Below, piece after piece: positions 14,869 through 32,960 of a stretch of DNA of 32,960 nucleotides. The notes beneath the pieces were generated by a model that saw only the letters and a list, made by a program, of their open reading frames with translations, did not search any database and was not told the DNA's origin. The position numbers were made by a program, and so were the translations under genes. Source of the DNA: a bacterium. GTDB taxonomy: Bacteria; Patescibacteriota; Minisyncoccia; UBA6257; GWB1-50-10. Each line of letters opens with the position of its first letter. Position 1 is the first letter of the stretch. The stretch is taken from assembly GCA_027310235.1 (NCBI GenBank), contig DAIDBF010000049.1, positions 1 to 32,960 on the forward strand, given 5' to 3'.

Positions 14869-14891
14869 GGGGTTGACCCCATTTCCGAATT

Positions 14892-18080: not shown

Positions 18081-19526
18081 ATGCCTCGCGAATCAAAACT
18101 GCAAATTATCAAATATGCTCCTCCGCCGCCGGAGCTGCCGATCTACGGGCAAGTTGACCCGAAGGACGTGTCGTTTATAGGGAGAACCAATTACGTCGCC
18201 GCGCTTGAGCGGAAGAATTTCATCTTTGGCATCAAACGCGTCGACAGAAGAAGGCACGCGTACATCATCGGGAAAAGCGGCGTCGGAAAATCGAAGCTCT
18301 TGGAACTTTTTACGCGCCAGGATATCGCCTATGGCCACGGACTTTGCCTTATCGATCCGCACGGCGAAACGATCGACGACATCCTTCCGTTTATCCCAAA
18401 GGAACGCATTGATGATGTGTGCATCATCGATCCTTCCGACATTAATTACCCCGTATCCTTCAACCCGCTTGCAAACATCGATCCCTCTTTCAAACATCAG
18501 CTTACCCAAGGTCTTATTGAAGTCATGGAAAAGCAGTTCGGTGCGAACTGGACGCCGCGGCTCGAGCACGTATTCCGCTTTACCTGTCTCGCGCTTCTCG
18601 ATTATCCGCATGCCACCATGCGCGGCATGATCTCGATGTTGACCGATAGAAACTACCGCCAAAAAGTAGTGGAATATATCGAGGACGACATGGTAAAACG
18701 CTTCTGGGCGATCGAGTTTGCCGACTGGTCGGAAAAGTTCGACACGGAGGCCATCATCCCGCTTGTAAACAAGCTCGGACAGTTCCTTTCGGATCCGATG
18801 CTTCGGAACATCTTCGGGCAGAAAGAAAACAAGGTAAAACTCGAAGAGTTGATGCAGGAGAAGAAGATCATTCTCATCAATCTTTCGAAGGGGAAGATCG
18901 GAGAAGAAAATTCAAGTTTCTTCGGTTCGATGTTCATCACGAAAATTAAGCAAGCCGGCATGGCGCGCGCCGCGCTTCCAACCTCCGAACGGCACGACTA
19001 CTACGTGTATGTGGACGAGTTCCAGAATCTCGTAACCGATACGTTTGAAAACCTTTTGTCCGAGGCGCGCAAGTACGGATTGTGTCTTACAGTCGCGCAT
19101 CAGTATGTGGGGCAACTCTTGCCGAAGGTAGAAGCCGCCGTTCTGGGAAATACCGGAACGATTATCATTTTCCGCGTAGGCGGCGAAGATGCCGTGAAAC
19201 TGAAACCGGAGATGGCGCCCATCTTCGATATTAAGGATATGATCAACCTCGGTATGGGTCAGATTTATATCAAGATGACGATTGATGGCGAGACGTACGA
19301 TCCATTTTCCGCAGAGACGCTGAAAGTGCTCCCGCCGACGCATCCCTCATATAAGGAAGAAATCGTCGCGCGATCGCGCGAGAAGTATTCAATCTCCGCG
19401 GATGCGGCAAAGCGGCTCATCGCGGAAGAGGAAGAAGGAATTTTCCGAAGTGCCCAGGAAAAGGCGGCGATCACTGGCAAACCGCAGGCGGCGGCCGGAA
19501 ACGATACTCCAGAACCACTCATATAG
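18081..19526 (+). CDS. Soluble VirD4/TraD/TraG (type IV coupling protein)-like P-loop ATPase, paralogue 1
   Basis: It has Walker A IIGKSGVGKS, Walker B YYVYVDEFQN, then LLSEARKYGLCLTVAHQYVGQL, matching the T4CP-type pattern DE..L....L.E.RK.G....HQ...QL. There is no N-terminal TM segment. Confidence 0.8.
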   Translation: MPRESKLQIIKYAPPPPELPIYGQVDPKDVSFIGRTNYVAALERKNFIFGIKRVDRRRHAYIIGKSGVGKSKLLELFTRQDIAYGHGLCLIDPHGETIDDILPFIPKERIDDVCIIDPSDINYPVSFNPLANIDPSFKHQLTQGLIEVMEKQFGANWTPRLEHVFRFTCLALLDYPHATMRGMISMLTDRNYRQKVVEYIEDDMVKRFWAIEFADWSEKFDTEAIIPLVNKLGQFLSDPMLRNIFGQKENKVKLEELMQEKKIILINLSKGKIGEENSSFFGSMFITKIKQAGMARAALPTSERHDYYVYVDEFQNLVTDTFENLLSEARKYGLCLTVAHQYVGQLLPKVEAAVLGNTGTIIIFRVGGEDAVKLKPEMAPIFDIKDMINLGMGQIYIKMTIDGETYDPFSAETLKVLPPTHPSYKEEIVARSREKYSISADAAKRLIAEEEEGIFRSAQEKAAITGKPQAAAGNDTPEPLI

Positions 19527-19542
19527 ATTTCTCCTAAACCCA

Positions 19543-19662
19543 GTAGTGAAAACTCGATTGTGTATTGCCCCTCTTTTCCTCGATTTATTTCATATCTCCA
19601 CAAAGGCGTAAAATAATTAAGAAGATTCAAGCATCAAAAACAAATTATCGAGTTTCTACTAC
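19543..19662 (+). repeat. Inverted-repeat element copy 2
   Basis: The 16-nt termini are identical to copy 1 (19543-19558 and 19647-19662). The stem is extended by ccca/tggg. The 88-nt interior is unrelated to that of copy 1. Confidence 0.6.
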
Positions 19663-19694
19663 TGGGAAAGGTCGCTAGTTTAAAAGTAAATTAT

Positions 19695-20000
19695 ATGGTT
19701 CTCATTTATACCACGTGTAAAAATGAAGAAGAGGGAAAGAAACTCGCAAAACTGATTATCGAGCATCATATGGCCTCGTGCGTGAACGTGTGGCCCATTC
19801 AGTCGGTCTATCGCTGGGAAGGGGAGATCAAGGAGGACCAGGAGGCCGGGGTTCTTGTAAAGACGCTCGAGTCGAAACTGCAGCCGATTGAAGATCTGAT
19901 CATGCAGAATCACGCGTATGTCACTCCTTTTATAGGGGCTGTCGATGTGCGTCGTATCAACCATGCCTACAAGGAGTGGATGTCGGAGGTGGTCCGGTAG
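19695..20000 (+). CDS. cutA: Divalent-cation tolerance protein CutA
   Basis: 101 aa with the typical CutA1 pattern: VLIYTTC.....A..LA..I.....ASCVN..P..S.Y.W.G.I......L..KT. Confidence 0.85.
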   Translation: MVLIYTTCKNEEEGKKLAKLIIEHHMASCVNVWPIQSVYRWEGEIKEDQEAGVLVKTLESKLQPIEDLIMQNHAYVTPFIGAVDVRRINHAYKEWMSEVVR

Positions 20001-20028
20001 TTGCATTTTTTGGAAGTTGTGATATAAT
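20001..20028 (+). promoter_or_regulatory. Candidate promoter with extended -10
   Basis: TTGCAT (20001-20006), a 16-nt spacer, then TGaTATAAT (20020-20028). The ATG at 20041 is 12 nt downstream. Confidence 0.5.
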
Positions 20029-20040
20029 ATAACCATTGAA

Positions 20041-20223
20041 ATGCCACTCTGGCTCATTATTGTTGTAGCGTTAGTTATTGCATACACGGTCTACTCGATT
20101 GTGAAGGGTCTCACACTCACCTTCAGATGTAGGAGACTTCTGAGGCGTCACCGCATGCTCTTAGGAGAGAAAGTGGAGGAACTCGAAGAAGATAGTGACA
20201 GCGGTGACTCGGGAGGATTATAG
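20041..20223 (+). CDS. Small single-TM protein with basic then acidic tail
   Basis: It reads MPLWLIIVVALVIAYTVYSIV followed by RCRRLLRRHR and EELEEDSDSGDSGG. A promoter lies directly upstream. Confidence 0.55.
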   Translation: MPLWLIIVVALVIAYTVYSIVKGLTLTFRCRRLLRRHRMLLGEKVEELEEDSDSGDSGGL

Positions 20224-20307: not shown

Positions 20308-20333
20308 GTTTGTGGCTGTCGACAGGTTATAAT
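20306..20333 (+). promoter_or_regulatory. Candidate promoter giving a leaderless array transcript
   Basis: TTGTTT (20306-20311), a 16-nt spacer, then TATAAT (20328-20333). ATG 20340 is 6 nt after the -10 hexamer and has no SD. Confidence 0.45.
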
Positions 20334-20339
20334 AATCAG

Positions 20340-22061
20340 ATGCAATCGACTGAAAATATCTGCGTTACTTGCAATCTTCATTTTGAGGTTCTGCCCGACG
20401 ACGCGGTCTTTTACGAAAAAATCGGAGTACCTATCCCGCGATCGTGTCCTTTATGTCGTGCGCGGCACCGACTGACGTTTCGAAACGAACGATCGTTCTA
20501 CAAGAGAAAATGCGATCGATGCGGGAAAGAAAATGTCTCGATGTATAGTTCGAACAAACCGTTCAGAGTGTGGTGTCATGAGTGCTGGTTCTCGGATGCG
20601 TGGGATGCAAAAGATTTCGGGATCTCGTACGACTCCTCGAAACCGTTTTTGGATCAGTTCGGCGCACTTTTGAATACGGTGCCGAAAGTAGGTCTTATGT
20701 ACGAACGGAGCGTGAACTCGGAGTATGTGAATATCTCAGCCGACAACAAGAGCTGCTACATGATTATCGAGTCCTCGAATAATGAGGACTGCACGCATTG
20801 TTACTGGATTCAGGAGTGTCGCAACCTGACGGACGTTTCGTTCGCTTCGAAGACCGAACTCTCATACGAAAGCGACGACTGCTACAAGTCCTACAAACTT
20901 TTCTACAGTAAGGGATGTCACGATTCTCACGACGGATATTTTCTTCTCGATTGCCGCGGGTGCTCCGATTGCATCGGGTGCGTGAACTTGAGGAATACGC
21001 AATACCACGTGTTCAACAAGCCACTCTCGCGGGAGGAGTACGAGGCGTTCAAACAAAAAGTGCGTCTCGATACATGGAGTGGCAAAGAAAAAATACGAAA
21101 GCAATTCGAAGAGTTCATCGCGACGCAACCGAGAAGGTTCGGCGAGGTTTACAATGCGCCGAACTCGTCGGGAAACTACATCAAGGATTCGAAAAACTGC
21201 CGTTCCTGCTTTCATTGCTATGACTCCGAGGACTGCGCGTACGGCGTGCACGTGTGGCGGAACGCGAAGGATTGCATGGATTCCGATACGGCGGGAAGGA
21301 ATGCCGCGCTCGTCTACAACTCGATCAATGCGGGTATCGATACCTCCCATTATATAAGCTGTGCGGTGTGTTGGTCGTGCAGTTTTATGGAGTATTCGTC
21401 ATACTGCTTCAACTCCAATCACTGTTTCGGGTGTGTGGGATTAAGAAAGAAGGATTACTGTATTTTGAACAAGCAGTACTCCAAGGAAGAGTACGAAGAG
21501 AAAAGAGAAAAAATTATTGCGGAAATGAGGCATTCCGGGGCGTACGGCGAGTTTTTCCCCGTCGGAATGAGCACCTTCGGGTATAACGAAAGTGCCGCGC
21601 AGGACCAGTTTCCGCTTACGAAGGAAAAGGCGCTCACGCTCGGATTTTCGTGGGAAGACACTCCGCGCGGAACATACGGGAAAGAAACCATTTCGTGGGA
21701 GGCGATCCCTGATTCGATCCGTGAAATCAAAATTGACGTGTCGAAAGAAATTTTCGCGTGTGTCACGTGTAAAAAGAACTTCAGGATTATCCCGAGCGAG
21801 TTCGAATTTTATAAGCACCTTGAGATTCCTTTACCGAGAGAATGTCCGGATTGTAGACATTTAAGAAGATTCCGTGCACGAGGACCGAACCGACTCTTTG
21901 AGCCGCGGCAGTGCGCGTGCGATTACAAGGTGTATAAGAACTCGACGGTACACCTTCATCATCGTGAAGGGAGATGTCCCAATACGTTTCAGTCGAATTA
22001 TCCCCCGGACGCGAAAGAAATTTTATACTGTGAATCATGTTACCAAACTGAGGTAGTGTGA
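20340..22061 (+). CDS. Cys-rich multi-zinc-ribbon repeat protein, array member g1 (B-like subtype)
   Basis: All family motifs are present: the N-terminal CVTC...FYEKIGVPIPRSCPLCR, then CDRCGK...CHECWFSDAW, two C..C.GC..LR..Y...N caps, YGEFFP..YNESAAQDQFP, the C-terminal CVTCKKNFRIIPSEFEFYKHLEIPLPRECPDCR, and the terminal YCESCYQTEVV. I preferred ATG 20340 over the track's TTG 20310. Confidence 0.9.
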   Translation: MQSTENICVTCNLHFEVLPDDAVFYEKIGVPIPRSCPLCRARHRLTFRNERSFYKRKCDRCGKENVSMYSSNKPFRVWCHECWFSDAWDAKDFGISYDSSKPFLDQFGALLNTVPKVGLMYERSVNSEYVNISADNKSCYMIIESSNNEDCTHCYWIQECRNLTDVSFASKTELSYESDDCYKSYKLFYSKGCHDSHDGYFLLDCRGCSDCIGCVNLRNTQYHVFNKPLSREEYEAFKQKVRLDTWSGKEKIRKQFEEFIATQPRRFGEVYNAPNSSGNYIKDSKNCRSCFHCYDSEDCAYGVHVWRNAKDCMDSDTAGRNAALVYNSINAGIDTSHYISCAVCWSCSFMEYSSYCFNSNHCFGCVGLRKKDYCILNKQYSKEEYEEKREKIIAEMRHSGAYGEFFPVGMSTFGYNESAAQDQFPLTKEKALTLGFSWEDTPRGTYGKETISWEAIPDSIREIKIDVSKEIFACVTCKKNFRIIPSEFEFYKHLEIPLPRECPDCRHLRRFRARGPNRLFEPRQCACDYKVYKNSTVHLHHREGRCPNTFQSNYPPDAKEILYCESCYQTEVV

Positions 22062-22094
22062 TGAGTATCAAGTAGTTAGTATTAAGTATCAAGT

Positions 22095-23858
22095 ATGCAA
22101 GAGACGAAACAGTGTCAGAATTGCAAGAATGAGTTTGTCATCGAACCGAACGATTTCTTATTTTACGAGCGCATACAAGTACCGCCGCCGACGTTTTGCC
22201 CGGAATGCAGGGAGCAGAGAAGAATCGCCTGGAGAAACGAGCGTGCGCTCTATAAGAGAAAATGCGACTTGTGCGGCGAGTCGGTCGTCTCGCGTGTCTC
22301 GCCAGACAAACCATATCCGATGTACTGCAAGAAATGCTGGTGGGGCGACACGTGGAGCCCCTTCTCTTACGGGAGGGAGTATGACTTCTCGCGTCCCTTT
22401 TTCGAGCAGTTCAAGGAGCTCCTGTATGCGACGCCGCATGTCTCGATCCTGAACCTGAATACCGTAAACAGCGAGTGGGTAAATCAGGAAACCGACGACA
22501 AGAACTGCTATCTGAACGTGGGCGGGCATTACAACGAGGATTCCGCCTACAACACCTACTCCCTTTACACCAAGGATTCTCTCGACAACTTCTGGCTTTT
22601 GAACGGCGAGCTCGCATACGAAAACATGAACTGCGAGAAGTGCTACCGCATTCTAGGATCGAGGGATTGCTCCGATTCGCAAAACATCGCCTTCTCCTTC
22701 GATTGTAGGAACTGCTCGGACTGTCTCGGATGCGCGGGACTCAGAAACAAACAATACTACATCTTCAATGAGTCGCATTCGAAGGAGTCGTACGAGAAGT
22801 TTTTGGAAGAACACCCACTGAGTTCATATAAGCATTTTTGCGAATTACGTGCCCGCGCGGCAGTATTTTGGAACACCATTCCTCATCGTTTCGCGTCCAT
22901 CCTAAGATCAAGTGAGGTGAGTGGAAACCACATCACCAATTCGAAGCGAGTATTCAACTCCTGGGACGTAGAAGACAGCGAGGATGCGAAGTACATCTAC
23001 ATCGGAGGATGGCTTCGCGACAGCTACGATGAGAGTGCGCATGGGGCGTCCGAGTTGAGTTATGAGTGCGCAAGCGGCGGGGGGGTATATGATTCGAAGT
23101 TCTGCGTTTTCTGCATGAGCGGCGATCCTTTGAAAAAGATACACTCGTCCGATATTGAGTATTGCTACTCCATAATCGACAGCAAAAACTGTTTCGGGTG
23201 CGCCAATTTGAGAAACGGGGAGTATTGTATTTTGAACAAGAAGTATACGAAAGAGGAGTACGAGGCGCTTCTTCCGAAGATACGACAGCATATGATGGAG
23301 ATGCCGTATCAAGGGAAGAATGGACGGGAGTACCGATACGGAGAATTTTTCCCGATTGAGTTTGCCCCTTATGGTTATAACGAGACCGCGGCGCAGGACT
23401 ACTATCCGCTCGCGAAGGAAGAAGCGATCGAAAAAGGATATTCGTGGTGCGATTACGAGTCGGACGCGAAGTACGAATTTTCGGACTATACGATTCCGGA
23501 CGATATCAAAGACGTGAAAGACGATATTCTTCAGAAAATTCTGAAGTGCGAAGTGTCGTGGAAACCCTATCGCCTCGTTCCTATGGAACTGGAGTTTTAT
23601 AGGAGAATGAACCTCCCGATTCCTCGCGTCTCGCCGCTCGAGCGTCATAATGCGAGAATGAGGAAACTTCTTCCGCGTAAGCTTTTTGAAAGAACATGTG
23701 AATGTAACGGATCATCTTCGGAACGCGGCGGATATAAGAATCTCACCTCCCACGTTCACGGTGTGGGCAGGTGTCCGAATGCGGTGAAAACGCCTTACGC
23801 CCCCGATCGGGGAGAAATCGTGTACTGTGAATTATGTTACCAAGCCGAGGTGGCATAG
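22095..23858 (+). CDS. Cys-rich multi-zinc-ribbon repeat protein, array member g2 (A subtype)
   Basis: 587 aa. The head is MQETKQCQNCKNEFVIEPNDFLFYERIQVPPPTFCPECREQRR. The A-type tail is RTCEC...HVHGVGRCPN...PDRGEIVYCELCYQAEVA. The C-terminal ribbon ligands are lost (KCEVSWKPYRL...RVSPLER). Confidence 0.9.
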   Translation: MQETKQCQNCKNEFVIEPNDFLFYERIQVPPPTFCPECREQRRIAWRNERALYKRKCDLCGESVVSRVSPDKPYPMYCKKCWWGDTWSPFSYGREYDFSRPFFEQFKELLYATPHVSILNLNTVNSEWVNQETDDKNCYLNVGGHYNEDSAYNTYSLYTKDSLDNFWLLNGELAYENMNCEKCYRILGSRDCSDSQNIAFSFDCRNCSDCLGCAGLRNKQYYIFNESHSKESYEKFLEEHPLSSYKHFCELRARAAVFWNTIPHRFASILRSSEVSGNHITNSKRVFNSWDVEDSEDAKYIYIGGWLRDSYDESAHGASELSYECASGGGVYDSKFCVFCMSGDPLKKIHSSDIEYCYSIIDSKNCFGCANLRNGEYCILNKKYTKEEYEALLPKIRQHMMEMPYQGKNGREYRYGEFFPIEFAPYGYNETAAQDYYPLAKEEAIEKGYSWCDYESDAKYEFSDYTIPDDIKDVKDDILQKILKCEVSWKPYRLVPMELEFYRRMNLPIPRVSPLERHNARMRKLLPRKLFERTCECNGSSSERGGYKNLTSHVHGVGRCPNAVKTPYAPDRGEIVYCELCYQAEVA

Positions 23859-23898
23859 TTATCCCCAATATTATCGAGGCCCGGCCTCGATAGATTGA
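23859..23898 (+). repeat. 40-nt repeat containing a GC hairpin (copy 1)
   Basis: ttatccccaatattatcgaggcccggcctcgatagattga is identical over 40/40 nt to 31087-31126. Its core tatcgaggcc-c-ggcctcgata is a 10-nt-arm palindrome. It starts right after the g2 stop. Confidence 0.8.
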
Positions 23899-23909
23899 GA
23901 ACACATCAT

Positions 23910-24029: not shown

Positions 24030-24033
24030 CAGG

Positions 24034-24053
24034 TGCTATGCTATAGCATAGCA
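24034..24053. repeat. A-to-B junction palindrome (copy 1)
   Basis: tgctatgcta/tagcatagca is a perfect 20-nt palindrome lying 5 nt after the scar's TGA and 13 nt before the g3 ATG. Confidence 0.7.
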
Positions 24054-24066
24054 GTCAAAATATCCC

Positions 24067-25719: not shown

Positions 25720-27509
25720 CCCCGGAAACGAAAACGTGTCAGAACTGTAAGGTTCAGTTCACGATAGAACCCGAGGATTTTGCGTTTTACGAGAAGATGC
25801 AAGTTCCGCCGCCCACGTGGTGCCCGATGTGTCGGATGCAGCGACGACTTGCGATACGAAACGAGCGGTATCTGTTCAAGCGGACAAGCGATTTTTCGGA
25901 AAAGGAGATATTCTCTGGGTACCCGGCATCTGCGCCGATCAAGGTGTATGAGAATGAGGTGTGGTATTCCGATGTATGGGATCCAAGGAGCTTCGCGATG
26001 GATATTGATTTCTCGAGGCCTTTCTTGGATCAACTACTGGAACTCTTCCGTAAGGTCCCCATCTACACGTTGTCTACCGCATTCGGAACGAACAGCGATT
26101 ACGCGAATAACTTCACCGGTTTCAAGAATTGCTACCTTGTGTTTGACGGCAATTATGCCGAGGACTGCATGTACGGGAGGGGCATTAATTATGCGAAAAA
26201 CTCGGTGGATAATTCTTTCCTGGATCACGTGGAAAATGCGTACGGCAACTTCTGGATTAACCGTTCATCGCACCTCATGTATTGTAGCCAGTGCGCCGAT
26301 TCGGTCGATTGTTACTTCTGCAAAAATTGCGTCGGATGTAGCGATTGTTTCGGATGTGTGAACCTGAGAAACAAGAAATATTGCTTTTTCAACAAATCGT
26401 ACCGCAAAGAGGAATACAAAAAACTCCTCGAGCAGTATAATCTCGGATCGTTTAAGGTGATAACGGAACTGGAAGAGAAAACAGGGGAGTTTTACCTGCA
26501 TTTTCCAGTGAAATTCATGGAAGGGATGAAAAACACGAATTCGAGCGGCGAGTACATGTATAACTGCAGAAACGTGCACGATTCGTACATCATTGTGGAT
26601 GCCGAGAATGTCCGTTACTCGTCGTATATGGAGATAGGTCCGATAAAAGATTGCTATGACTATACGGTATGGGGAAACAATGCGGAGCTCCTCTACGAAT
26701 GCGCGGACTGCGGGCTCGGTGTTTCAAACATGAGGTTCTGTATGGCGTGTTGGTCGGAGGTGAGGAACGCGGAGTACTCGCTCTTTTGCCAATCCTCGTC
26801 GGATATTTTCGGGTGTGTCGGACTTCGGAACGGCAAATACTCCATCCTAAATAAAGAATACGGAGAAGAGGAATATAAAATGCTTCGTGAAAAAATTATC
26901 ACGAGCATGAAAGAACTACCCTATCACGCGAACGGAACCGACTACTCATACGGAGAATTCTTCCCTCCCGCGTTTTCCGCGGTTCCTTATAATCACACGC
27001 CGGCATACGAACAATTTCCGCTTACAAAAGAAGAAGCGCTTGCGAAGGGGTATATGTGGGAAGATTCCACCGAGAAGAAGCATGAGCAGACTCTTTTATG
27101 GAGTGATCTACCCGATGCGATACAGGATGTTAAGAACGAAATAACAAAGGAGACGGTACTGTGTGAATCCTGGGAAAAGGATCGGGAAAAAGTCTCGCTT
27201 CGGAACTGCACGAAAGCGTTCCGTTTCCATCCGAACGAAATAGAGTTTTATCGGCGCTACACAACTCCGCTTCCGAGAAAATGTTCCAACTGCAGGGAAT
27301 TCGATCGTCTTCAGAAGAGGAATCCAGCGCGTCTTTATCACCGTGTCTGCCAGTGCGCCGGTGCGAAATCCGAAAACGAAGCGTACGCAAACACCACTAC
27401 TCACCAGCACGGAACGGGGAGATGCGCGAACGAATTCGAAACAAGTTATTCGCCCGACCGAAAAGAGATCATCTACTGCGAGCTGTGCTATCAATCAGAA
27501 GTCGTATGA
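25716..27509 (+). CDS. Cys-rich multi-zinc-ribbon repeat protein, array member g4 (A subtype)
   Basis: The start MTPETKTCQNCKVQFTIEP overlaps the g3 stop (ATGA at 25716-25719). The A-type tail is RVCQCAGAKSENEAY.NTTTHQHGTGRCANEFETSYSPDRKEIIYCELCYQSEVV. The second N-terminal ribbon has lost its Cys (KRTSDFSEK...YENEVWYSDVW). Confidence 0.9.
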   Translation: MTPETKTCQNCKVQFTIEPEDFAFYEKMQVPPPTWCPMCRMQRRLAIRNERYLFKRTSDFSEKEIFSGYPASAPIKVYENEVWYSDVWDPRSFAMDIDFSRPFLDQLLELFRKVPIYTLSTAFGTNSDYANNFTGFKNCYLVFDGNYAEDCMYGRGINYAKNSVDNSFLDHVENAYGNFWINRSSHLMYCSQCADSVDCYFCKNCVGCSDCFGCVNLRNKKYCFFNKSYRKEEYKKLLEQYNLGSFKVITELEEKTGEFYLHFPVKFMEGMKNTNSSGEYMYNCRNVHDSYIIVDAENVRYSSYMEIGPIKDCYDYTVWGNNAELLYECADCGLGVSNMRFCMACWSEVRNAEYSLFCQSSSDIFGCVGLRNGKYSILNKEYGEEEYKMLREKIITSMKELPYHANGTDYSYGEFFPPAFSAVPYNHTPAYEQFPLTKEEALAKGYMWEDSTEKKHEQTLLWSDLPDAIQDVKNEITKETVLCESWEKDREKVSLRNCTKAFRFHPNEIEFYRRYTTPLPRKCSNCREFDRLQKRNPARLYHRVCQCAGAKSENEAYANTTTHQHGTGRCANEFETSYSPDRKEIIYCELCYQSEVV

Positions 27510-27511
27510 TA

Positions 27512-27535
27512 GGTACTATGACGCGTCATAGTACC
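27512..27535. repeat. A-to-B junction palindrome (copy 2)
   Basis: ggtactatgacg/cgtcatagtacc is a perfect 24-nt palindrome lying 2 nt after the g4 stop and 5 nt before the g5 ATG. Confidence 0.7.
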
Positions 27536-27540
27536 CTTAA

Positions 27541-29250
27541 ATGATCATGAACCAAGAGAAAAGAATCTGCCAAAACTGCAAACAATCGTTTACGACAGAA
27601 CCCGAGGACTTCGCATTCTACGAGAAGATGCAAGTACCTCCGCCGACGTTTTGTTCGAAATGTCGGCTTCAGAGAAGATTAGCGTTCTTCAATATTTTTA
27701 ATCTTTACAAGCGCCCTTGTGATCTTTGTGAAAAGGATTTTATTTCGACATACAGATCGGAGGCACCATATAAAGTATATTGTCCGAAGTGTTGGTGGTC
27801 GGACAATTGGGATGTATTTAAATATGGGAGGGAATACGATTTTTCGCGCCCGTTTTTTGAACAATTCAAAGAACTGTGGCACGAGACCCCGGTTTTGGGA
27901 GTTTCAATCGATATTCCCGCGATGCAAACATCACCATACACAAATCACACGGGGCACCTCAAGAACTGCTATCTTCTCTTTCATGCGGATTACGTTGAGG
28001 ATTCGGCATATGGATTTTACCAGGTGCATAATAAATCGGTGTTCGATGCGGTTTGCGCGATGAACTGTGAGATGTGTTATGACAGCCAGAACGCGTTCAA
28101 AAATAATCGGTGCGTGGGGACACGAGGTAATGTCACAAATTCACTCGATTGCTACTTCCTCCGCGATTGCGACAACTGTCAAAATTGTTTCGCGTCCGTG
28201 AATCTCCGGAACGCGAAATTTCAGATATTTAATAAACAGTATTCAAGAGAAGGGTATTTCGAGGAACTCAAGAAATGGGATTTCGGTTCGTATAAGACCT
28301 ATTGCGAGGTGGAAAAAATGGCGCACGAACACTGGAGGGAATTCCCGCCGCGCCCGAAGTACGATGATTTCTCAGTGGATTGCACAGGAAGCTATATTTT
28401 TCAGTCGAAGAACTGCAAGGAATGTTTTGATTCAACAAACGTGCAGGACTCGAAATTCATGCTTCTCGTCGAAGACAGACCGACAAAGGATTCCTACGAT
28501 ATCTCAAGCTGGGGAAATAATATGACGCGCTGCTATGAATGCTGTAATGTCGGTGAAGACGTATCGGACGTGCGATTTTCACAGGAATCGGGACTCACGC
28601 TTATGGATGCTGAGTACTGTAAGCTCTCGACGGGATCGCATCACTTCGGATGTGTATCGGTGAAGAAAGGAGATTATGTCGTTCTGAACAAACGGTATTC
28701 GAAGGAGGCATATGAGGTGCTCACCGCGAAGATCCGCAAACACATGGATATAGTGCCATATATCGACAAGAAGAAGAGGGTATATAGGTATGGCGAGTTC
28801 TTTCCGATCGAGATTGCGCAGTTCGCCTACAATGAAACGATTGCAAATGATTTCTTCCCGATGAGTAGGGCAGAAGCGGAGTCGGATGGGTATTATTGGA
28901 ATGAACCGGAAGAGCGGAATCACATGATTACAAAATCGTACGCCGATCTTCCGGATCACATCAATGATGTGGAGGACAATGTTTTGAATGAAGTCGTTGG
29001 ATGTGAAGTATGCGGTAAGGGATACAGGATCACGCCTATGGAGCTCTCGTTTTTGCGCCAGATGCGCCTGCCACTCCCGCGCACGTGCCCCTTCTGTAGG
29101 ATCAATGAGAAGTTCAAACAATGGGTAAAGAATCTTCGTATAATTCCACGTGTGTGCGATCGATGTGGCGCGCATTTCACGACGAATTACACGAAAGAAG
29201 AAGCACCACACATTTTGTGCAAGGAATGCTATCTTAAGGAGGTAGTATGA
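27541..29250 (+). CDS. Cys-rich multi-zinc-ribbon repeat protein, array member g5 (B subtype)
   Basis: 569 aa with the head M(IM)NQEKRICQNCKQSFTTEP. All ribbons are intact. The short B-type tail is RVCDRCGAHFTTNYTKEEAPHILCKECYLKEVV. The start may be 27547. Confidence 0.9.
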   Translation: MIMNQEKRICQNCKQSFTTEPEDFAFYEKMQVPPPTFCSKCRLQRRLAFFNIFNLYKRPCDLCEKDFISTYRSEAPYKVYCPKCWWSDNWDVFKYGREYDFSRPFFEQFKELWHETPVLGVSIDIPAMQTSPYTNHTGHLKNCYLLFHADYVEDSAYGFYQVHNKSVFDAVCAMNCEMCYDSQNAFKNNRCVGTRGNVTNSLDCYFLRDCDNCQNCFASVNLRNAKFQIFNKQYSREGYFEELKKWDFGSYKTYCEVEKMAHEHWREFPPRPKYDDFSVDCTGSYIFQSKNCKECFDSTNVQDSKFMLLVEDRPTKDSYDISSWGNNMTRCYECCNVGEDVSDVRFSQESGLTLMDAEYCKLSTGSHHFGCVSVKKGDYVVLNKRYSKEAYEVLTAKIRKHMDIVPYIDKKKRVYRYGEFFPIEIAQFAYNETIANDFFPMSRAEAESDGYYWNEPEERNHMITKSYADLPDHINDVEDNVLNEVVGCEVCGKGYRITPMELSFLRQMRLPLPRTCPFCRINEKFKQWVKNLRIIPRVCDRCGAHFTTNYTKEEAPHILCKECYLKEVV

Positions 29251-29291
29251 CGAGCGAGTAGTAAGTAGTTTATAGTGAGTAGGATGAGTTT

Positions 29292-31055
29292 ATGACTACC
29301 GAGACGAGAACGTGTCAGAATTGTAAATCCGAGTTCATTATCGAACCGGACGATTTTGCGTTTTACGAGAAGATTGACGTACCACCGCCGACGTTTTGTC
29401 CCGCGTGTCGAAAACAGCGACGACTCGCGTGGCGCAACGACCTTTCGCTTTATACGAGAAAATGTGATTCCTGCGGAAAAAATGTGGTGTCACTTTATGC
29501 CCCGAATGGACCCATAGAGACCGTATATTGTCAAAAGTGCTGGTGGTCAGATAAATGGGATCCGATGGCGTACGGCCGTGAGTACGATTTCTCGAAGCCA
29601 TTTTTCGAGCAATTTGCCGCGCTCCAAAGACACGTACCGACACTCGCAATGATTAATGACGATGGAGTGGGAAGTATAAATTGCGAATACACGCAGGATT
29701 TTGCGCGTAGCAAGAATTGTTACATGGTGTTTATCGCGTGGAAGCTTGAGGACTGTCTCTATAGTTTCTATATTCTTGACGGCAAGGAAATTGTGGATAG
29801 TTTAAACTCCATGGGCGAGTGTGAGATGATCTACGATACCGTATACACGGAGAAATGTTACCGGTGTCGCAACGTGTATTATTCGGTTACGCTTTCTGAT
29901 TGTAATTTTTGTTGGGATTGTCGTGATTGCTCCGATTGTTTTCTCTGCGTAGGGCTTCGCCATAAACGATACTGCTTCAAGAATAAGCAGTATTCCAAAG
30001 AGGAATATGAACATATTCTTGCCGAATATCGGCTCAATGCGTACTCGGGGATTCAGCGTGCGTCGAGTGAACTTCAACCGCTTTTATTTCAATACCCCCG
30101 CAGGTTTTCAAATTTGCGTAATTGTGTGCGTTGTACCGGTGACGCGCTTATTAATGGAAAGAACTCAAAGGATTGCTTTAACGTTCAGCGACCTGAAGAT
30201 TGTCGATGGATAGAAAATTCCGATACACCTACAGCGAGCTATGATTTGAGTGTCGGGGGAGAACTTGAAAACTGCTATGAGGGAATCACCCCCGACCACT
30301 CGTATCGCGGCCGCTTCGAGATATTTTCTTGGAAAAACACCGAAGTTTCTTATACGGATGCGTGTCATTCTTGTAAAGATGTGTTTGGATGCGTGGGTCT
30401 TAAGAAGGCGCAATACTGTATCCTCAACAAACAGTACTCAAAAGAGGAATATGAAATACTTGTGCCAAAGATTAAAAAACATATGAATGAAATGCCTTAT
30501 ATCGACCGTTCCGAAGTAATATATCGTTTTGGAGAATTTTTCCCCGCCGAACTTTCCTACTTTGCGTACAACGAAACCGGCGCGCAAGAATCGTTTCCTA
30601 TGTCGCACGAAGAAATTTCCGGATGTGGTTTACGGTGGCAGGACAATTTTCAAACTACGGTTGGAAAAGAAACCCTTACGGCGGATGAACTACCAGACAG
30701 TATTAACGATGTTGAAAATTCTATCTTGAATGAGGTGTTGCGGTGTGAAACATGTGCGAGGAACTATCGTATCGTGCCGCGCGAACTGGAGTTCTACCGA
30801 AAGATGCGAATACCTCTCCCGCGCCATTGTTTCCATTGTCGTACGAAAGCACGTTTCAATTTACGAAATCCGTTTTCACTTTGGCACCGCACTTGTCAAT
30901 GTGTTGGTCCAAAATCCGAGAATGGCGCCTACCAAAACACCGCATCTCATGACCACGGGACAGAAAAATGTCCCAATACATTTGAAACGAGTTATGCACC
31001 CGACCGCCCGGAGATTGTATATTGCGAGGGGTGCTATCAAAAGGAGGTAGTATAG
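29292..31055 (+). CDS. Cys-rich multi-zinc-ribbon repeat protein, array member g6 (A subtype)
   Basis: 587 aa with the head MTTETRTCQNCKSEFIIEPDDFAFYEKIDVPPPTFCPACRKQRR. All ribbons are intact. The A-type tail is RTCQCVGPKSENGAYQNTASHDHGTEKCPNTFETSYAPDRPEIVYCEGCYQKEVV. Confidence 0.9.
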   Translation: MTTETRTCQNCKSEFIIEPDDFAFYEKIDVPPPTFCPACRKQRRLAWRNDLSLYTRKCDSCGKNVVSLYAPNGPIETVYCQKCWWSDKWDPMAYGREYDFSKPFFEQFAALQRHVPTLAMINDDGVGSINCEYTQDFARSKNCYMVFIAWKLEDCLYSFYILDGKEIVDSLNSMGECEMIYDTVYTEKCYRCRNVYYSVTLSDCNFCWDCRDCSDCFLCVGLRHKRYCFKNKQYSKEEYEHILAEYRLNAYSGIQRASSELQPLLFQYPRRFSNLRNCVRCTGDALINGKNSKDCFNVQRPEDCRWIENSDTPTASYDLSVGGELENCYEGITPDHSYRGRFEIFSWKNTEVSYTDACHSCKDVFGCVGLKKAQYCILNKQYSKEEYEILVPKIKKHMNEMPYIDRSEVIYRFGEFFPAELSYFAYNETGAQESFPMSHEEISGCGLRWQDNFQTTVGKETLTADELPDSINDVENSILNEVLRCETCARNYRIVPRELEFYRKMRIPLPRHCFHCRTKARFNLRNPFSLWHRTCQCVGPKSENGAYQNTASHDHGTEKCPNTFETSYAPDRPEIVYCEGCYQKEVV

Positions 31056-31126
31056 CCAATATTAAGGAGGCCCGGCCTCGATAAAGTTATCCCCAATATT
31101 ATCGAGGCCCGGCCTCGATAGATTGA
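31056..31126 (+). repeat. Degenerate plus perfect copy of the 40-nt hairpin repeat
   Basis: 31056-31085 (ccaatattaaggaggcccggcctcgataaa) is a variant copy. 31087-31126 is identical to 23859-23898. The repeat begins directly after the g6 stop. Confidence 0.8.
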
Positions 31127-31146
31127 AGAAAAAGCGGGGAAATTGG

Positions 31147-31155
31147 TGGTATAAT
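31147..31155 (+). promoter_or_regulatory. Extended -10 element (TGgTATAAT) giving a leaderless ATPase transcript
   Basis: TGGTATAAT lies at 31147-31155. ATG 31163 is 7 nt downstream and has no SD. Confidence 0.45.
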
Positions 31156-31162
31156 ACGAGCA

Positions 31163-32960
31163 ATGCCAAACGAGGAAGCGGATAAGGACGTCGTCTATTT
31201 TGCGAAGACGAATTTTCGGAACTCGAACCGACTTTTCGGTATCAGGCGGAAAGATCGTCGTCAACACACGTATATCATCGGAAAGACCGGTACCGGTAAG
31301 TCCGCGCTTTTGAACAACTTAATTGTGCAGGATATCGCAAACGGCGAAGGACTTTGCGTTGTGGATCCGCATGGAGAACTTATCGAGGACATCCTTCACA
31401 AGATTCCGGAGGAGCGGATGAAGGACGTCGTGTACTTCAATCCTGCGGACACCGATTTTCATCTCGGATTCAATGTCTTGGAGCTCCCCGATCCGAAGTA
31501 TAAACACCTTGTTGCGTCGGGTCTCATGGGTATTTTCACGAAGATCTGGTCGAACGTATGGTCGGCGAGAATGGAATATATTTTGAATAACGCGATTCTC
31601 GCCCTTCTCGATACTCCGGGAAGTACACTTCTCGGCATCACGCGGCTTCTCGTTGACAAAGAGTATCGCGGAAAGATCGTTTCGAACCTCAAAGACCCCG
31701 TCGTCAAAGCGTTCTGGGTGAACGAGTACGAGGAGTGGCGGGATCAGTTCAGAAACGAGGCAATCGCTCCTATTCAAAACAAGGTAGGCCAGTTCCTTTC
31801 GACTTCGGTGGTTCGAAACATTGTGGGACAAGCGAAAAGCACCTTCGATATTTTCGAAATCATGAATTCGGGAAAAATCTTTCTCGTGAACGTGTCAAAA
31901 GGAAGGATCGGTGAAGATAACTCGGCGCTTTTGGGCGCGATGCTTATCACGAAGATTCAACTCTCCGCGATGGAACGCGTGCGCGTCCCGGAAGAAGAGC
32001 GTGTCGATTTTTTCCTCTATGTCGACGAGTTTCAGAACTTCGCGACCGATTCGTTCGCGAGCATTCTCTCCGAAGCGAGAAAGTACCGACTTGATCTCGT
32101 ACTTGCGCACCAGTACGTGGGACAACTCGTGACGGACGTCTCGACCAAGGTGCGCGACGCGGTATTTGGGAACGTCGGAACGATGATTGTGTTCAGGGTG
32201 GGCGCGGCTGACGCGGAGTTTTTGGAGAAAGAGTTCGAACCGGAGTTCCTTCCGGAAGATTTCGTGAATCTTCCGAACTACAACATTTATTTGAAACTGA
32301 TGGTAAACGGCGTCACGAGTCGTCCTTTTTCCGCCGCCACGCTTCCGCCTTTTAAGTTGAGCACCTCCGAGGATATAGAACAAAAAATCATCGAATATTC
32401 GAGAAAGCACTACGCGCGCCCGCGATGGGTGGTCGAGGAAGAAATCAACAAATGGACCGGCGTCATGGGGCCGAGTGAAGGACAGTTCGAGGTGACGTGT
32501 TCGTCGTGCGGCAAGCAGACGACCGTGCCATTCGAACCAGAGGAAGGTCGTCCGGTGTACTGTAAGGACTGCCTTGCAAAGATAAAGTCGGGCGAGATGA
32601 AGCCGGTACGAATGGCGCCGCGGGAATCGAAGGATGGCGGCCGGCCGCGGGAACAGCAATATGCCGCGCTTGCGGGCCTCGGTATCGAGTTTGAGGAACA
32701 TCCGGAACGATCGGCGGAACGAAAACAAGAAAGAAACGGCGAGGCGCAAGAAAAACCCCACCGCCCCTCGAATCATTTCCAGGAAAGAAAAGAGCAGAAG
32801 GTTGAAGAACGACCGAAGACGACGTTCGAGGAGGAGTCTGTGGTTGCTCCGCAGCCCGAAACGCCGGCGCTTTCGCTCCACGCGCTTGAGACGGGTTCCG
32901 GTGCCGAAGCAAAGAAGAAAGAAGAATCGGAAGAAGTATTGGATGTGGAAGAGCTCCGAA
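31163..32960 (+). CDS. VirD4/TraD/TraG-like P-loop ATPase, paralogue 2, with C-terminal zinc ribbon and charged tail (3' end outside window)
   Basis: This ORF is absent from the ORF track because no stop falls in the window; my manual translation is open from ATG 31163 to the window end. It has IIGKTGTGKS, FFLYVDEFQN and ILSEARKYRLDLVLAHQYVGQL, and is clearly paralogous to 18081-19526. It adds VTCSSCGKQTTVPFEPEEGRPVYCKDCL (32498-32572) and an E/K/R-rich tail. Confidence 0.85.
   Translation, partial: MPNEEADKDVVYFAKTNFRNSNRLFGIRRKDRRQHTYIIGKTGTGKSALLNNLIVQDIANGEGLCVVDPHGELIEDILHKIPEERMKDVVYFNPADTDFHLGFNVLELPDPKYKHLVASGLMGIFTKIWSNVWSARMEYILNNAILALLDTPGSTLLGITRLLVDKEYRGKIVSNLKDPVVKAFWVNEYEEWRDQFRNEAIAPIQNKVGQFLSTSVVRNIVGQAKSTFDIFEIMNSGKIFLVNVSKGRIGEDNSALLGAMLITKIQLSAMERVRVPEEERVDFFLYVDEFQNFATDSFASILSEARKYRLDLVLAHQYVGQLVTDVSTKVRDAVFGNVGTMIVFRVGAADAEFLEKEFEPEFLPEDFVNLPNYNIYLKLMVNGVTSRPFSAATLPPFKLSTSEDIEQKIIEYSRKHYARPRWVVEEEINKWTGVMGPSEGQFEVTCSSCGKQTTVPFEPEEGRPVYCKDCLAKIKSGEMKPVRMAPRESKDGGRPREQQYAALAGLGIEFEEHPERSAERKQERNGEAQEKPHRPSNHFQERKEQKVEERPKTTFEEESVVAPQPETPALSLHALETGSGAEAKKKEESEEVLDVEELR

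What the first reader, a model, noticed from the sequence alone, without database searches (positions are those of the whole stretch)
18081..32960. The array is bracketed by two paralogous soluble type-IV-coupling-protein-like ATPases
ORF 18081-19526 and the open-ended ORF starting at 31163 are clear paralogues. They align throughout, sharing for example IIGK(S/T)G.GKS, GLC..DPHGE.I.DIL, (V/I)NKLGQFLS, YVDEFQN and LSEARKY.L.L..AHQYVGQL. The Walker A, Walker B and RK.G....HQ...QL architecture matches TraD/VirD4/TraG coupling proteins, but both lack the N-terminal TM anchor of canonical T4CPs.

I found no other T4SS, conjugation, relaxase or integrase genes in the window. Only cutA and a 60-aa TM protein separate ATPase 1 from the array, and ATPase 2 starts 108 nt after the array. 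Two copies of a substrate-recruiting, translocase-type ATPase flanking a paralogue array suggests a functional link. The array proteins could be clients or partners, or the whole region could be a duplicated ATPase-plus-cargo locus. This link is inference, not demonstrated.
Basis: partly seen in the sequence, partly recalled or inferred. Interest (0 to 1): 0.75.

Follow-up and report, generated by a model that had tools for sequence, protein, structure and literature searches.

The report
Split coupling-ATPase pair flanking zinc-protein array
The two ATPases are real, ancient paralogues of the "orphan" type-IV coupling proteins found throughout Patescibacteria; their missing membrane half is a separate gene just upstream, and one of the two paralogue types is non-randomly linked to the cysteine-rich gene family across several bacterial classes.

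Summary
ORF 18081-19526 (ATP1) and the open ORF from 31163 (ATP2) are 47% identical (E 7e-134). Both are VirD4/TrwB-like P-loop ATPases without TM helices, and they flank cutA, a 60-aa TM gene and six Cys-rich paralogues.

Gene 16000-17406 (DUF8128, two TM helices) lies directly upstream of this ATPase family across Patescibacteria. It is fused to the ATPase in one ORF in 23 homologues. The same fusion occurs in Bacillus plasmid proteins that sit next to a relaxase-like gene in Tcp-like conjugation modules. So ATP1 and ATP2 are the nucleotide-binding halves of a split monoderm-type coupling protein, not autonomous soluble T4CPs.

A crude tree separates two old clades. Clade A (ATP1) has no zinc finger. 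Clade B (ATP2) carries a C-terminal CxxC-x17-CxxC zinc finger. In related genomes the two genes are directly adjacent, so the array is an insertion into a tandem pair, not an "ATPase-plus-cargo" duplication.

The array link is nonetheless non-random and specific to clade A. Cys-rich genes occur in 22 of 27 loci with clade A and 1 of 38 without it. In the reverse direction, 41% of Cys-rich loci hold the ATPase, against about 5% expected.

Function remains inferred. This is a new variant of a known kind.

The parts
15938..15964 (+). Strong terminator-like hairpin (12-13 bp G+C-rich stem plus a T run) between the stop of the sigma70_r4/HARE-HTH gene and the DUF8128 start codon
   Evidence: It suggests that DUF8128 starts a new transcription unit and that its real start is ATG 16000, not TTG 15901. 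This is a consensus scan only.
16000..17406 (+). DUF8128 protein (468 aa from ATG 16000; the ORF opens at TTG 15901). It has two N-terminal TM helices and a roughly 400-aa alpha/beta domain. It is the split-off N-terminal half of the coupling-protein-like ATPase.
   Evidence: TM helices at aa 24-42 and 45-63. Orthologues carry PF26449. The gene lies directly upstream of, or is fused to, the ATPase in most loci. AF2 model pLDDT 79.8; the top 13 Foldseek PDB hits are all TrwK/VirB4.
17413..17955 (+). 180-aa single-TM protein (TM180), inserted between DUF8128 and ATP1 only in Jorgensenbacteria-like lineages
   Evidence: No Pfam family.
17956..18080 (.). AT-rich 125-nt intergenic region with promoter-like hexamers, preceded by a terminator-like hairpin at 17919-17951
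   Evidence: Site counts are not above the shuffled controls.
18081..19526 (+). ATP1: clade-A T4CP-like P-loop ATPase, 481 aa, no TM helix and no zinc finger. It is the paralogue type linked to Cys-rich genes.
19695..20000 (+). CutA1 family protein. It recurs next to ATP1-type genes even where no array is present.
20041..20223 (+). 60-aa single-TM ORF
   Evidence: No homologue was detected in other loci.
20310..31055 (+). Array of six Cys-rich paralogues: 20310-22061, 22095-23858, 24067-25719, 25686-27509, 27541-29250 and 29292-31055. Each has 31-40 Cys, 11-16 CxxC motifs, no TM helix and a conserved C-terminus C..CY(Q/L)xEV(V/A/I).
31163..32960 (+). ATP2: clade-B T4CP-like ATPase, open at the window end (about 13 aa missing), with a low-complexity C-terminal tail
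32483..32584 (+). CxxC-x17-CxxC treble-clef zinc finger of ATP2 (aa 441-474)
   Evidence: zf_Tbcl_2 scores 58.6 bits against 27; TIGR04272 scores 61.5 against 36. Zinc binding by this domain type was shown for M. mazei small proteins (PMC12704099).

Best explanation
The two ORFs are the nucleotide-binding halves of a split, monoderm-type type-IV coupling-protein-like machine that is near-universal in Patescibacteria.

The membrane-anchored N-terminal half is the separate gene at 16000-17406 (DUF8128: two TM helices plus an alpha/beta domain whose best structural matches are VirB4/TrwK). By inference, DUF8128 docks a hexameric ATPase at the membrane.

An ancient duplication produced two clades. 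Clade B (ATP2) has a C-terminal zinc finger and is the form that usually sits directly after DUF8128. Clade A (ATP1) has no zinc finger and is extremely conserved.

In this lineage the two genes were ancestrally in tandem downstream of SecD-SecF-sigma/HARE-DUF8128. cutA and the Cys-rich array expanded between them, which produces the 'bracketing'.

Cys-rich genes travel with clade-A ATPases through several different gene orders and bacterial classes. They are therefore most likely clients, adaptors or cofactors of the clade-A motor rather than chance neighbours.

Shown: homology, the split/fused architecture, the paralogue clades, and the synteny statistics.
Inferred: membrane docking, hexamer formation, translocase activity, and the nature of the Cys-rich link.
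For: Paralogy and family:
- 47% identity, E 7e-134.
- TrwB_AAD_bind, T4SS-DNA_transf and TraG-D_C pass Pfam thresholds.
- TrwB is the only PDB sequence hit, through the Walker A and RK..G...Q...QL motifs.

Split and fusion with DUF8128:
- Of 97 ATPase genes with at least 1.6 kb of upstream DNA, 21 are fused to DUF8128 in one ORF, 34 have a DUF8128 gene within 250 nt upstream, and 11 have one further upstream, in the Jorgensenbacteria-like loci with TM180 in between.
- Bacillus plasmid proteins of 833 and 913 aa lie immediately upstream of a 'replication-relaxation' gene and TcpD/TcpE/VirB4-like genes. The 833-aa one (pBM69) matches the DUF8128 N-domain profile (E 1e-29) and the ATPase profile (E 3e-59); the N-domain of the 913-aa one is 34.7% identical to it by tblastn.
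- The DUF8128 AF2 model has pLDDT 79.8. Its top 13 Foldseek hits are all TrwK/VirB4, probability 0.97-1.0.

Clades and tandem origin:
- NJ tree of 105 ATPase domains.
- A and B are directly adjacent in L028, L029, L032 and L034. The order is A-CutA-B in L015 and L017.
- The reverse order DUF8128-B-CYS-A occurs in L142.

Array link:
- Genome loci of at least 10 kb: 22 of 27 with clade A hold Cys-rich genes, against 1 of 38 without (Fisher p 1.4e-11).
- 17 of 24 clade-A genes have a Cys-rich gene within 1 kb, and 11 of 24 within 100 nt.
- Adjacency persists in at least 5 distinct gene orders, including fused clade-A genes whose record titles name Abawaca- and Peribacteria (L033, L035, L080).
- Reverse direction: 11 of 27 Cys-rich-seeded loci of at least 15 kb hold the ATPase, against about 5% expected (p 3e-8).
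- The ATPase is the top co-occurring family in an unbiased clustering, at 20 of 79 loci against 10 or fewer for any other family.

Literature: 5,713 VirD4-type homologues in 2,918 Patescibacteria genomes, about 2 per genome, with only 148 near virB4 (PMC12102498).
Against: - No virB4, virB6, relaxase or other T4SS gene lies in the window. The literature reports these T4CP homologues far from virB4 and non-essential in Ca. Southlakia (PMC12102498). A T4SS-coupled role is therefore unproven.
- About 59% of Cys-rich loci have no ATPase within 10 kb, for example L005 and L007.
- 31 of 97 ATPase genes have no DUF8128 gene upstream, including window ATP2 and the Nomurabacteria-type ATP1 genes.
- No ATPase-Cys-rich fusion was found.
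- The synteny statistics are not corrected for phylogenetic relatedness. The presence of clade A and of the Cys-rich family may simply track the same lineages.
- The VirB4 resemblance of DUF8128 rests on Foldseek alone, with low TM-scores (0.31-0.36). No sequence or profile support was found.
- Terminator-like hairpins between TM180 and ATP1, and before the array, could mean separate transcription units.
Confidence: 0.6

Rival explanations
1. Exapted housekeeping motor with no functional link to the array. Under this reading the DUF8128 + ATPase pair is a core cellular translocase, for example for DNA or protein handling at the membrane. The Cys-rich genes accumulate downstream of it only because that spot tolerates insertions.
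For: - ATP1 is 79-98% identical across many lineages. It is more conserved than the neighbouring SecD and SecF (81% against 64-67% to the Jorgensenbacteria locus L003).
- The phylum-wide synteny SecD-SecF-sigma/HARE-DUF8128-ATPase runs alongside housekeeping genes.
- These homologues lie far from virB4, and the authors raise exaptation themselves (PMC12102498).
- Most Cys-rich arrays lie elsewhere, among aaRS, PGK and MreB genes.
- L032 and L034 have A-B adjacent with no Cys-rich gene within 10 kb.
Against: - Cys-rich genes stay next to clade-A ATPases after the ATPase has left the SecDF context (Nomurabacteria-type loci L013, L018, L020, L025).
- They also stay next to it in fused, distant clade-A genes (L033, L035, L080). 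A fixed insertion hotspot does not predict this.
- Clade-B loci in the same conserved position almost never carry them: 1 of 42.
Confidence: 0.27
2. One reading: two autonomous soluble T4CPs, with the region being a duplicated 'ATPase-plus-cargo' locus.
For: Two paralogues flank the array, and neither has a TM helix.
Against: - The paralogues are only 47% identical. They fall in clades that separate across bacterial classes, so this is not a recent segmental duplication.
- Array genes are not partitioned per ATPase.
- A membrane-anchored partner domain exists as a separate or fused gene.
- The two ATPases are directly adjacent in relatives.
Confidence: 0.04
3. A defence or conflict system: a HerA/MADS-mad8-like ATPase working with diversified zinc-finger sensor proteins.
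For: - PADLOC mad8 hits at E 2e-12 and 3.5e-14, and weak HerA hits.
- Multi-copy divergent paralogues with nucleic-acid-type zinc fingers.
- HicAB toxin-antitoxin pairs sit inside one array (L007).
Against: - Near-universal presence, very high conservation and fixed housekeeping synteny are atypical for defence genes.
- No other defence-system family matched the array proteins tested against PADLOC.
- Individual array members have 60-85% identical counterparts in other genomes, so they are old and stable.
- The family is absent from viral contigs.
Confidence: 0.07

Closest known systems
VirD4/TrwB/TraD type-IV coupling proteins (T4CP)
   Same: - P-loop NBD with Walker A, Walker B and the RK..G...Q...QL motif.
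- Pfam TrwB_AAD_bind, T4SS-DNA_transf and TraG-D_C pass their thresholds.
- TrwB is the only solved structure found by sequence.
   Different: - There is no N-terminal TM domain in the same polypeptide.
- The membrane part is a roughly 470-aa separate protein with a large extra domain, not a short 2-TM stub.
- No relaxase or T4SS genes are nearby.
- NCBIfam T4CP equivalog cut-offs are missed by far: 44-49 bits against 366, and about 43.5 against 250.
- ATP2 adds a C-terminal treble-clef zinc finger.
'Orphan' VirD4-type T4CP homologues of Patescibacteria (Quinonero-Coronel et al. 2025, PMC12102498)
   Same: Almost certainly the same genes. [quoted passage not shown]
   Different: In the passages I read, that paper does not describe the DUF8128 partner or fusion, the two clades, or the link to Cys-rich arrays. 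A full-text search for 'DUF8128' found no paper.
DUF87-annotated 833-913-aa proteins of Bacillus plasmids (pBM69, B. subtilis NRS6116_2) in Tcp-like conjugation modules
   Same: Same two-domain architecture: a DUF8128-like N-domain (E 1e-29 for the pBM69 protein) followed by the ATPase (E 3e-59). This equals the fused Patescibacteria form.
   Different: These are plasmid-borne, sit next to a relaxase-like gene and TcpD/TcpE/VirB4-like genes, and are fused. A T4CP role there is inferred from gene order only. Identity to ATP2 is about 27%.
VirB4/TrwK (with VirB3) of type-IV secretion systems
   Same: The overall layout of the fused form is TM helices, then a non-ATPase N-domain, then a TrwB-related ATPase. 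The DUF8128 model's top 13 structural hits are all TrwK/VirB4 chains.
   Different: - There is no sequence or profile similarity of DUF8128 to VirB4.
- The TM-scores are low.
- The NBD scores better against T4CP models than against VirB4 models (TIGR00929: 18.9 bits against 643).
HerA/FtsK-superfamily ATPases (including MADS mad8)
   Same: Same ASCE P-loop superfamily. There are marginal DUF87 hits (26-27 bits against 23.2) and PADLOC mad8 hits.
   Different: No NurA, Sir2 or other partner was detected. FtsK_SpoIIIE is below threshold. HerA equivalog cut-offs are missed by far.

Membership tests
T4CP (VirD4/TrwB/TraD) | P-loop NBD with Walker A, Walker B and the TrwB-type RK..G...Q...QL motif; Pfam T4CP domain models above gathering score | tested here: met
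   TrwB_AAD_bind scores 29.5 and 54.6 bits (GA 20.5). T4SS-DNA_transf scores 20.3 and 32.4 (GA 20.1). TraG-D_C scores 25.3 and 27.4 (GA 22). The TrwB alignment runs through both motifs.
T4CP (VirD4/TrwB/TraD) | N-terminal transmembrane anchor in the same polypeptide | tested here: not met
   Maximum Kyte-Doolittle 19-mer score is 1.32 and 1.27, so no TM segment. TM helices are on the separate DUF8128 gene, which is fused to the ATPase in 23 homologues.
T4CP (VirD4/TrwB/TraD) | Genomic association with a relaxase and/or mating-pair-formation genes (virB4 etc.) | tested here: not met
   None among the window ORFs scanned. The literature reports 148 of 5,713 near virB4. The association is met only for the Bacillus plasmid homologues.
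T4CP (VirD4/TrwB/TraD) | Curated NCBIfam T4CP models (SXT_TraD, conj_TOL_TraD, CD1115 VirD4-like) above cut-off | tested here: not met
   Best scores are 44-49 bits against 366, and about 43.5 against 250.
T4CP (VirD4/TrwB/TraD) | Hexameric ring; substrate recruitment and hand-off to a T4SS channel | not testable with these tools
   Needs multimer modelling or biochemistry.
VirB4 | VirB4 N-terminal domain followed by the ATPase C-terminal domain | tested here: inconclusive
   The DUF8128 model's top 13 Foldseek hits are TrwK/VirB4 (E 1e-4 to 5e-3, TMq 0.31-0.36). There is no profile or sequence support. The aligned residue ranges were not available.
VirB4 | VirB4_CagE (TIGR00929) or CD1110 models above cut-off on the ATPase | tested here: not met
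   18.9 bits against 643.1, and 22.6 against 325.
HerA / FtsK | HerA or FtsK domain models above threshold, and a partner nuclease (NurA) or FtsK gamma/translocase context | tested here: not met
   DUF87 is marginal (26-27 bits against 23.2). FtsK_SpoIIIE scores 16.4 against 24. HerA equivalogs score 17 against 800. No NurA-like hit was found among the neighbours scanned.
MADS defence system (mad8) | mad8-like ATPase together with the other mad genes | tested here: not met
   mad8 hits at E 2e-12 and 3.5e-14. No PADLOC family matched any of the six array proteins.
CxxC-x17-CxxC / zf_Tbcl_2 zinc finger (ATP2 C-terminus) | Domain model above cut-off with four Cys ligands | tested here: met
   PF23477 scores 58.6 bits against 27. 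TIGR04272 scores 61.5 against 36, at aa 441-474 (CSSC...CKDC).
DUF8128 (PF26449) | Homology to proteins carrying PF26449 | tested here: met
   119 of the 120 listed relatives carry precomputed PF26449; the best is 90% identical. The local Pfam copy gave no hit for the window protein itself. The family has 2,611 representatives at E<=1e-3.

The most novel reading that the evidence does not exclude
The clade-A ATPase (ATP1 type) is a dedicated coupling or recruitment motor for the Cys-rich zinc-protein family. Those proteins would then be the unknown substrates or effectors (or their adaptors) of the Patescibacteria type-IV secretion system, which has been shown to be essential in Ca. Southlakia epibionticum. 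They would be delivered into host cells, where a reducing, zinc-containing cytoplasm lets them fold.
Probability: 0.15. Interest if true: 0.85.

Novelty: new variant of a known kind. Interest (0 to 1): 0.6.

Why it matters
Patescibacteria carry about two VirD4-like genes per genome. These lie far from the T4SS, and their role is openly unknown (PMC12102498).

Three results turn an annotation curiosity into testable hypotheses:
- The ATPases are halves of a split or fused protein with a membrane-anchored, VirB4-like N-domain.
- They form two ancient clades.
- One clade is syntenically tied to a very large uncharacterised zinc-protein family (at least 8,000 relatives).

The resulting questions are which protein anchors the motor, which paralogue does what, and what it might act on. 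What the T4SS of these epibionts moves is still open, and the Cys-rich family is now a concrete candidate.

Tried and rejected
- Recent segmental duplication of 'ATPase + cargo': rejected. Identity is 47%, the clades are deep, and the two genes are adjacent in relatives.
- ATPase-Cys-rich gene fusions as a Rosetta stone: none found. The only double hit is the ATP2 zinc finger weakly matching the Cys-rich profile.
- Cys-rich family on viral contigs: none.
- Mobile-element signs in the window (tRNA, integrase, relaxase): none.
- Sequence-level link between DUF8128 and VirB4: none was found in three searches.
  - Pfam scan of 40 family members.
  - Profile against PDB sequences.
  - hhalign against the pBM69 VirB4-like protein.
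- Fold of the Cys-rich protein: a confident AF2 model (pLDDT 84) has no PDB match. Only E>1 hits to left-handed beta-helix proteins appeared.
- Promoter and terminator scan to define operons: site counts are not above the shuffled controls, so only individual hairpins are noted.
- Defence-system reading: only weak mad8 and HerA hits.
- My first domain HMM iteration drifted, because fused proteins merged the DUF8128 and ATPase profiles. I rebuilt the profiles domain by domain.
- Wang et al. 2023 main text contains no VirD4 or T4CP terms. The non-essentiality statement is therefore taken from PMC12102498.

Full report
**Observation.**
The window carries a co-directional (+) gene run:
- sigma70_r4/HARE-HTH gene (14892-15935)
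- a 468-501-aa ORF (15901/16000-17406)
- a 180-aa ORF (17413-17955)
- ATP1 (18081-19526)
- cutA (19695-20000)
- a 60-aa ORF (20041-20223)
- six 550-607-aa Cys-rich paralogues (20310-31055)
- ATP2 (31163 to the window end)

ATP1 and ATP2 are 47% identical over 428 residues, E 7e-134. Both proteins pass Pfam thresholds for TrwB_AAD_bind, T4SS-DNA_transf and TraG-D_C. A profile of the family finds only TrwB among solved structures, aligned through the Walker A and RK..G...Q...QL motifs. Neither has a hydrophobic segment compatible with a TM helix. No curated NCBIfam T4CP, VirB4, HerA or FtsK model comes near its cut-off. ATP2 also carries a CxxC-x17-CxxC treble-clef zinc finger at aa 441-474 and a low-complexity tail. 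That domain type binds zinc experimentally in M. mazei small proteins (PMC12704099). The window truncates ATP2 by about 13 residues, judged from a 96%-identical orthologue of 612 aa.

**What the family is.**
ATP1 has at least 8,000 relatives. The best 120 are full-length and 79-98% identical, and the named ones come from several Patescibacteria lineages (Jorgensen-, Lipton-, Brennerbacteria, Minisyncoccia). Against the Jorgensenbacteria locus L003, ATP1 (81%) is more conserved than SecD and SecF (67% and 64%), the sigma/HARE protein (59%), DUF8128 (53%) and the Cys-rich genes (33-44%). The surrounding genes in the window are housekeeping: UvrD, TGT, M23 peptidase, SecD, SecF. There is no tRNA, integrase, relaxase or T4SS gene. 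A 2025 survey counted 5,713 VirD4-type homologues in 2,918 Patescibacteria genomes. Only 148 lie near virB4, and the authors note that exaptation 'cannot be ruled out' (PMC12102498). That is about two per genome, which matches the pair seen here.

**The missed partner.**
I searched them with the window proteins. The ORF at 16000-17406 turned out to have a homologue immediately upstream of the ATPase in most loci, at 20-56% identity (92% in the near-identical genome L008). By their record titles, which are unreliable for automated MAGs, these loci span Saccharibacteria, Uhr-, Kerfeld-, Falkow-, Doudna-, Berkel-, Peri- and Abawacabacteria.

Domain-wise HMMs (after a first iteration drifted) show that 23 ORFs of 747-1069 aa are single-frame fusions. 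The DUF8128 domain covers roughly aa 10-380 and the ATPase roughly aa 390-800. Of 97 ATPase genes with at least 1.6 kb of upstream sequence:
- 21 are fused
- 34 have the DUF8128 gene within 250 nt upstream
- 11 have it further upstream; in the Jorgensenbacteria-like loci, including the window, the 180-aa TM gene lies in between
- 31 have none

Orthologues carry PF26449 (DUF8128). The family has 2,611 representatives at 50% clustering. No paper in the library mentions it. The window protein has two N-terminal TM helices.

The same two-domain architecture occurs outside the phylum, in an 833-aa protein of Bacillus methanolicus pBM69 and a 913-aa protein of a B. subtilis plasmid. The pBM69 protein matches the DUF8128 profile at E 1e-29 and the ATPase profile at E 3e-59. 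The N-domain of the B. subtilis protein is 34.7% identical to it by tblastn. Both lie directly upstream of a 'replication-relaxation family' gene, followed by conjugal-transfer, TcpD, TcpE and VirB4-like genes. That is the slot a coupling protein normally occupies, an inference from gene order.

So the 'soluble' ATPases are the nucleotide-binding halves of a split monoderm-type coupling-protein-like protein.

**DUF8128 fold.**
An AF2 model from 40 sequences has pLDDT 79.8 and pTM 0.76. It shows the TM helices followed by beta-alpha-beta-beta-alpha-beta units. Its top 13 Foldseek PDB hits are all TrwK/VirB4 chains of the R388 T4SS, with probability 0.97-1.0, E 1e-4 to 5e-3 and TMq 0.31-0.36. 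DUF8128 has no P-loop and no Rossmann-like strand order, so the match is presumably to the non-ATPase N-terminal domain of VirB4. I could not see the aligned ranges. No sequence or profile method supports the link. I treat it as a lead: the fused protein has a VirB4-like layout with a T4CP-like NBD.

**Two clades and the origin of the 'bracket'.**
A crude NJ tree of 105 ATPase domains splits into two clades.
- Clade A holds window ATP1, all ATP1-type genes, the second copies in L030 and L031, L037, and the fused genes of L033, L035 and L080. None has a zinc finger.
- Clade B holds window ATP2, the ATPases that directly follow DUF8128 in most lineages (most with the zinc finger), and the fused proteins of loci titled Saccharibacteria, which lack it.

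Both clades contain fused members, so the duplication is old and fission probably recurred. The window's DUF8128 is closer to the partners of clade-B genes (27-32% identity, E down to 1e-67) than to the N-domains of fused clade-A genes (about 22%, E 1e-8 to 1e-13). Its ancestral partner was therefore probably the ATP2 type. L142 keeps DUF8128-ATP2-CYS-ATP1, and L030 and L031 keep DUF8128-ATP2-ATP1-CYS.

A and B are directly adjacent in L028, L029, L032 and L034. They are separated only by cutA and one small ORF in L015 and L017. The window's arrangement is therefore a tandem pair into which cutA, a small TM gene and the array were inserted. The ATP1...CYSn...ATP2 order recurs in related loci (L019, L027, L088, L093-L095). 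It is not an 'ATPase-plus-cargo' duplication.

**Is the array link real?**
From the ATPase side, among loci of at least 10 kb:
- 22 of 27 with a clade-A gene contain Cys-rich genes, against 1 of 38 without (Fisher p 1.4e-11)
- 17 of 24 clade-A genes have one within 1 kb, and 11 of 24 within 100 nt
- clade-B genes without a clade-A neighbour have one in 1 of 42 cases

Adjacency survives several gene orders:
- the window type
- ATP2-CYS...CYS-ATP1-CYS in Nomurabacteria-type loci that have left the SecDF context
- an ATPase embedded in arrays of 11 (L021) and 9 (L033) copies
- fused clade-A genes with a Cys-rich gene 4-80 nt away (L033, L035, L080)

From the Cys-rich side, a metagenome scan gave 79 loci.
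- Of the 27 that are at least 15 kb, 11 (41%) hold the ATPase, and 10 of those have it within 1 kb of a Cys-rich gene.
- My rough expectation is about 5% for one or two ATPase loci in a 0.7-1 Mb genome (binomial p 3e-8).
- Excluding the likely orthologous top hits gives 7 of 21 (p 5e-5).
- In an unbiased clustering of all genes in those loci, the ATPase is the most frequent companion: 20 loci, against 10 or fewer for PGK, DUF8128, sigma/HARE, CutA and MreB.

Caveats:
- None of these tests corrects for phylogeny.
- About 59% of arrays lie elsewhere (for example L005 and L007).
- No fusion links the two families.
- Terminator-like hairpins precede ATP1 and the array.

I conclude that the association is real and specific to clade A, but not obligate.

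**The Cys-rich proteins.**
They have at least 8,000 relatives, all annotated as hypothetical, in many Paceibacteria-type lineages. They have no TM helix, 31-40 Cys, 11-16 CxxC motifs and a conserved C-terminus C..CY(Q/L)xEV(V/A/I). There is a weak zf_Tbcl hit at one N-terminus. A confident AF2 model (pLDDT 84) has no PDB counterpart. The family is not found on viral contigs. Individual paralogues have 60-85% identical counterparts in other genomes, whereas paralogues within the window share 35-41%, so the array is old.

**Mechanism, largely inferred.**
DUF8128 anchors a hexameric ATPase at the membrane, as the fused forms do in one chain. The clade-B form adds a zinc finger that may bind nucleic acid or a partner. 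The clade-A form has lost both the N-domain and the zinc finger, and is under very strong constraint. Its persistent neighbourhood with Cys-rich genes suggests that these are its clients, adaptors or cofactors.

Whether the motor feeds the distant T4SS or has been exapted cannot be decided here. The non-essentiality of the homologue in Ca. Southlakia (as cited in PMC12102498) and the lack of T4SS linkage argue for caution.

**Verdict.**
This is a new variant of a known kind: orphan Patescibacteria T4CP homologues, now seen as a split or fused two-domain protein in two clades, one of them tied to a large zinc-protein family. Interest is 0.6.

Noticed in passing
window 24067-25719: The third array gene is an outlier. 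It has lost 10 of the 26 Cys positions conserved among the paralogues. Its GC3 is 42%, against about 60-64% for ATP1, cutA and the first two array genes (the other array genes range from 47% to 58%). It also overlaps the next gene by 34 nt. It may be a degenerating copy or one of different origin.
   Followed up: partly
window 17413-17955: The 180-aa single-TM protein between DUF8128 and ATP1 contains 'HKIRNQLVH', an Rx4H motif reminiscent of HEPN domains. It has no Pfam hit. It is detectable only in Jorgensenbacteria-like loci, where it is always wedged between DUF8128 and ATP1.
   Followed up: partly
window 12656-15935 and loci L003, L010-L087: SecD-SecF-(sigma70_r4 + HARE-HTH protein)-DUF8128-ATPase is a gene order conserved in loci whose record titles span many candidate phyla. 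The reason for linking a Sec accessory pair and a sigma-like protein to this ATPase is unexplained.
   Followed up: partly
window 15938-15964: A near-perfect 12-13-bp G+C-rich hairpin with flanking A and T runs, readable as a bidirectional terminator. It lies inside the 5' part of the TTG-initiated ORF 15901-17406, which argues for ATG 16000 as the true start.
   Followed up: partly
window 15892-17328 (-): A 478-aa antisense ORF fully overlaps the DUF8128 gene and has no family hit. It is probably a spurious shadow ORF.
   Followed up: no
L167 (Sulfitobacter mediterraneus plasmid NZ_CP081110.1, 99994-101181): A stand-alone 395-aa ATPase is 39.6% identical to ATP2, the best hit outside Patescibacteria. 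It sits among transposase and recombinase genes on an alphaproteobacterial plasmid. Further homologues occur on haloarchaeal, Sulfolobus, Streptomyces and many Bacillus plasmids, mostly typed non-mobilizable. This suggests wide horizontal spread of the NBD.
   Followed up: partly
L007 12019-12240 and 17318-17991 (Sungbacteria contig JACQRW010000024.1): HicA/HicB toxin-antitoxin genes are inserted inside and beside an array of at least 8 Cys-rich genes that has no ATPase within reach.
   Followed up: no
window 19695-20000; L010, L015, L017, L021, L036: cutA (divalent-ion tolerance family) recurs immediately next to ATP1-type genes, downstream in most loci and upstream in L021, even where no Cys-rich gene is present. 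A metal-related protein beside a zinc-protein array may not be a coincidence.
   Followed up: partly
window 5068-6546 (-): This is the only long minus-strand gene candidate in the window: 492 aa, no Pfam family, in a stretch with inverted GC and AT skew.
   Followed up: no
L095 9196-12201; window 32585-32960: ATP2-type proteins carry long, fast-evolving low-complexity tails after the zinc finger (P/A/S-rich, then E/K-rich; 1001 aa in L095). A short motif, Y.ALA.LGIEF, is conserved just after the finger.
   Followed up: no
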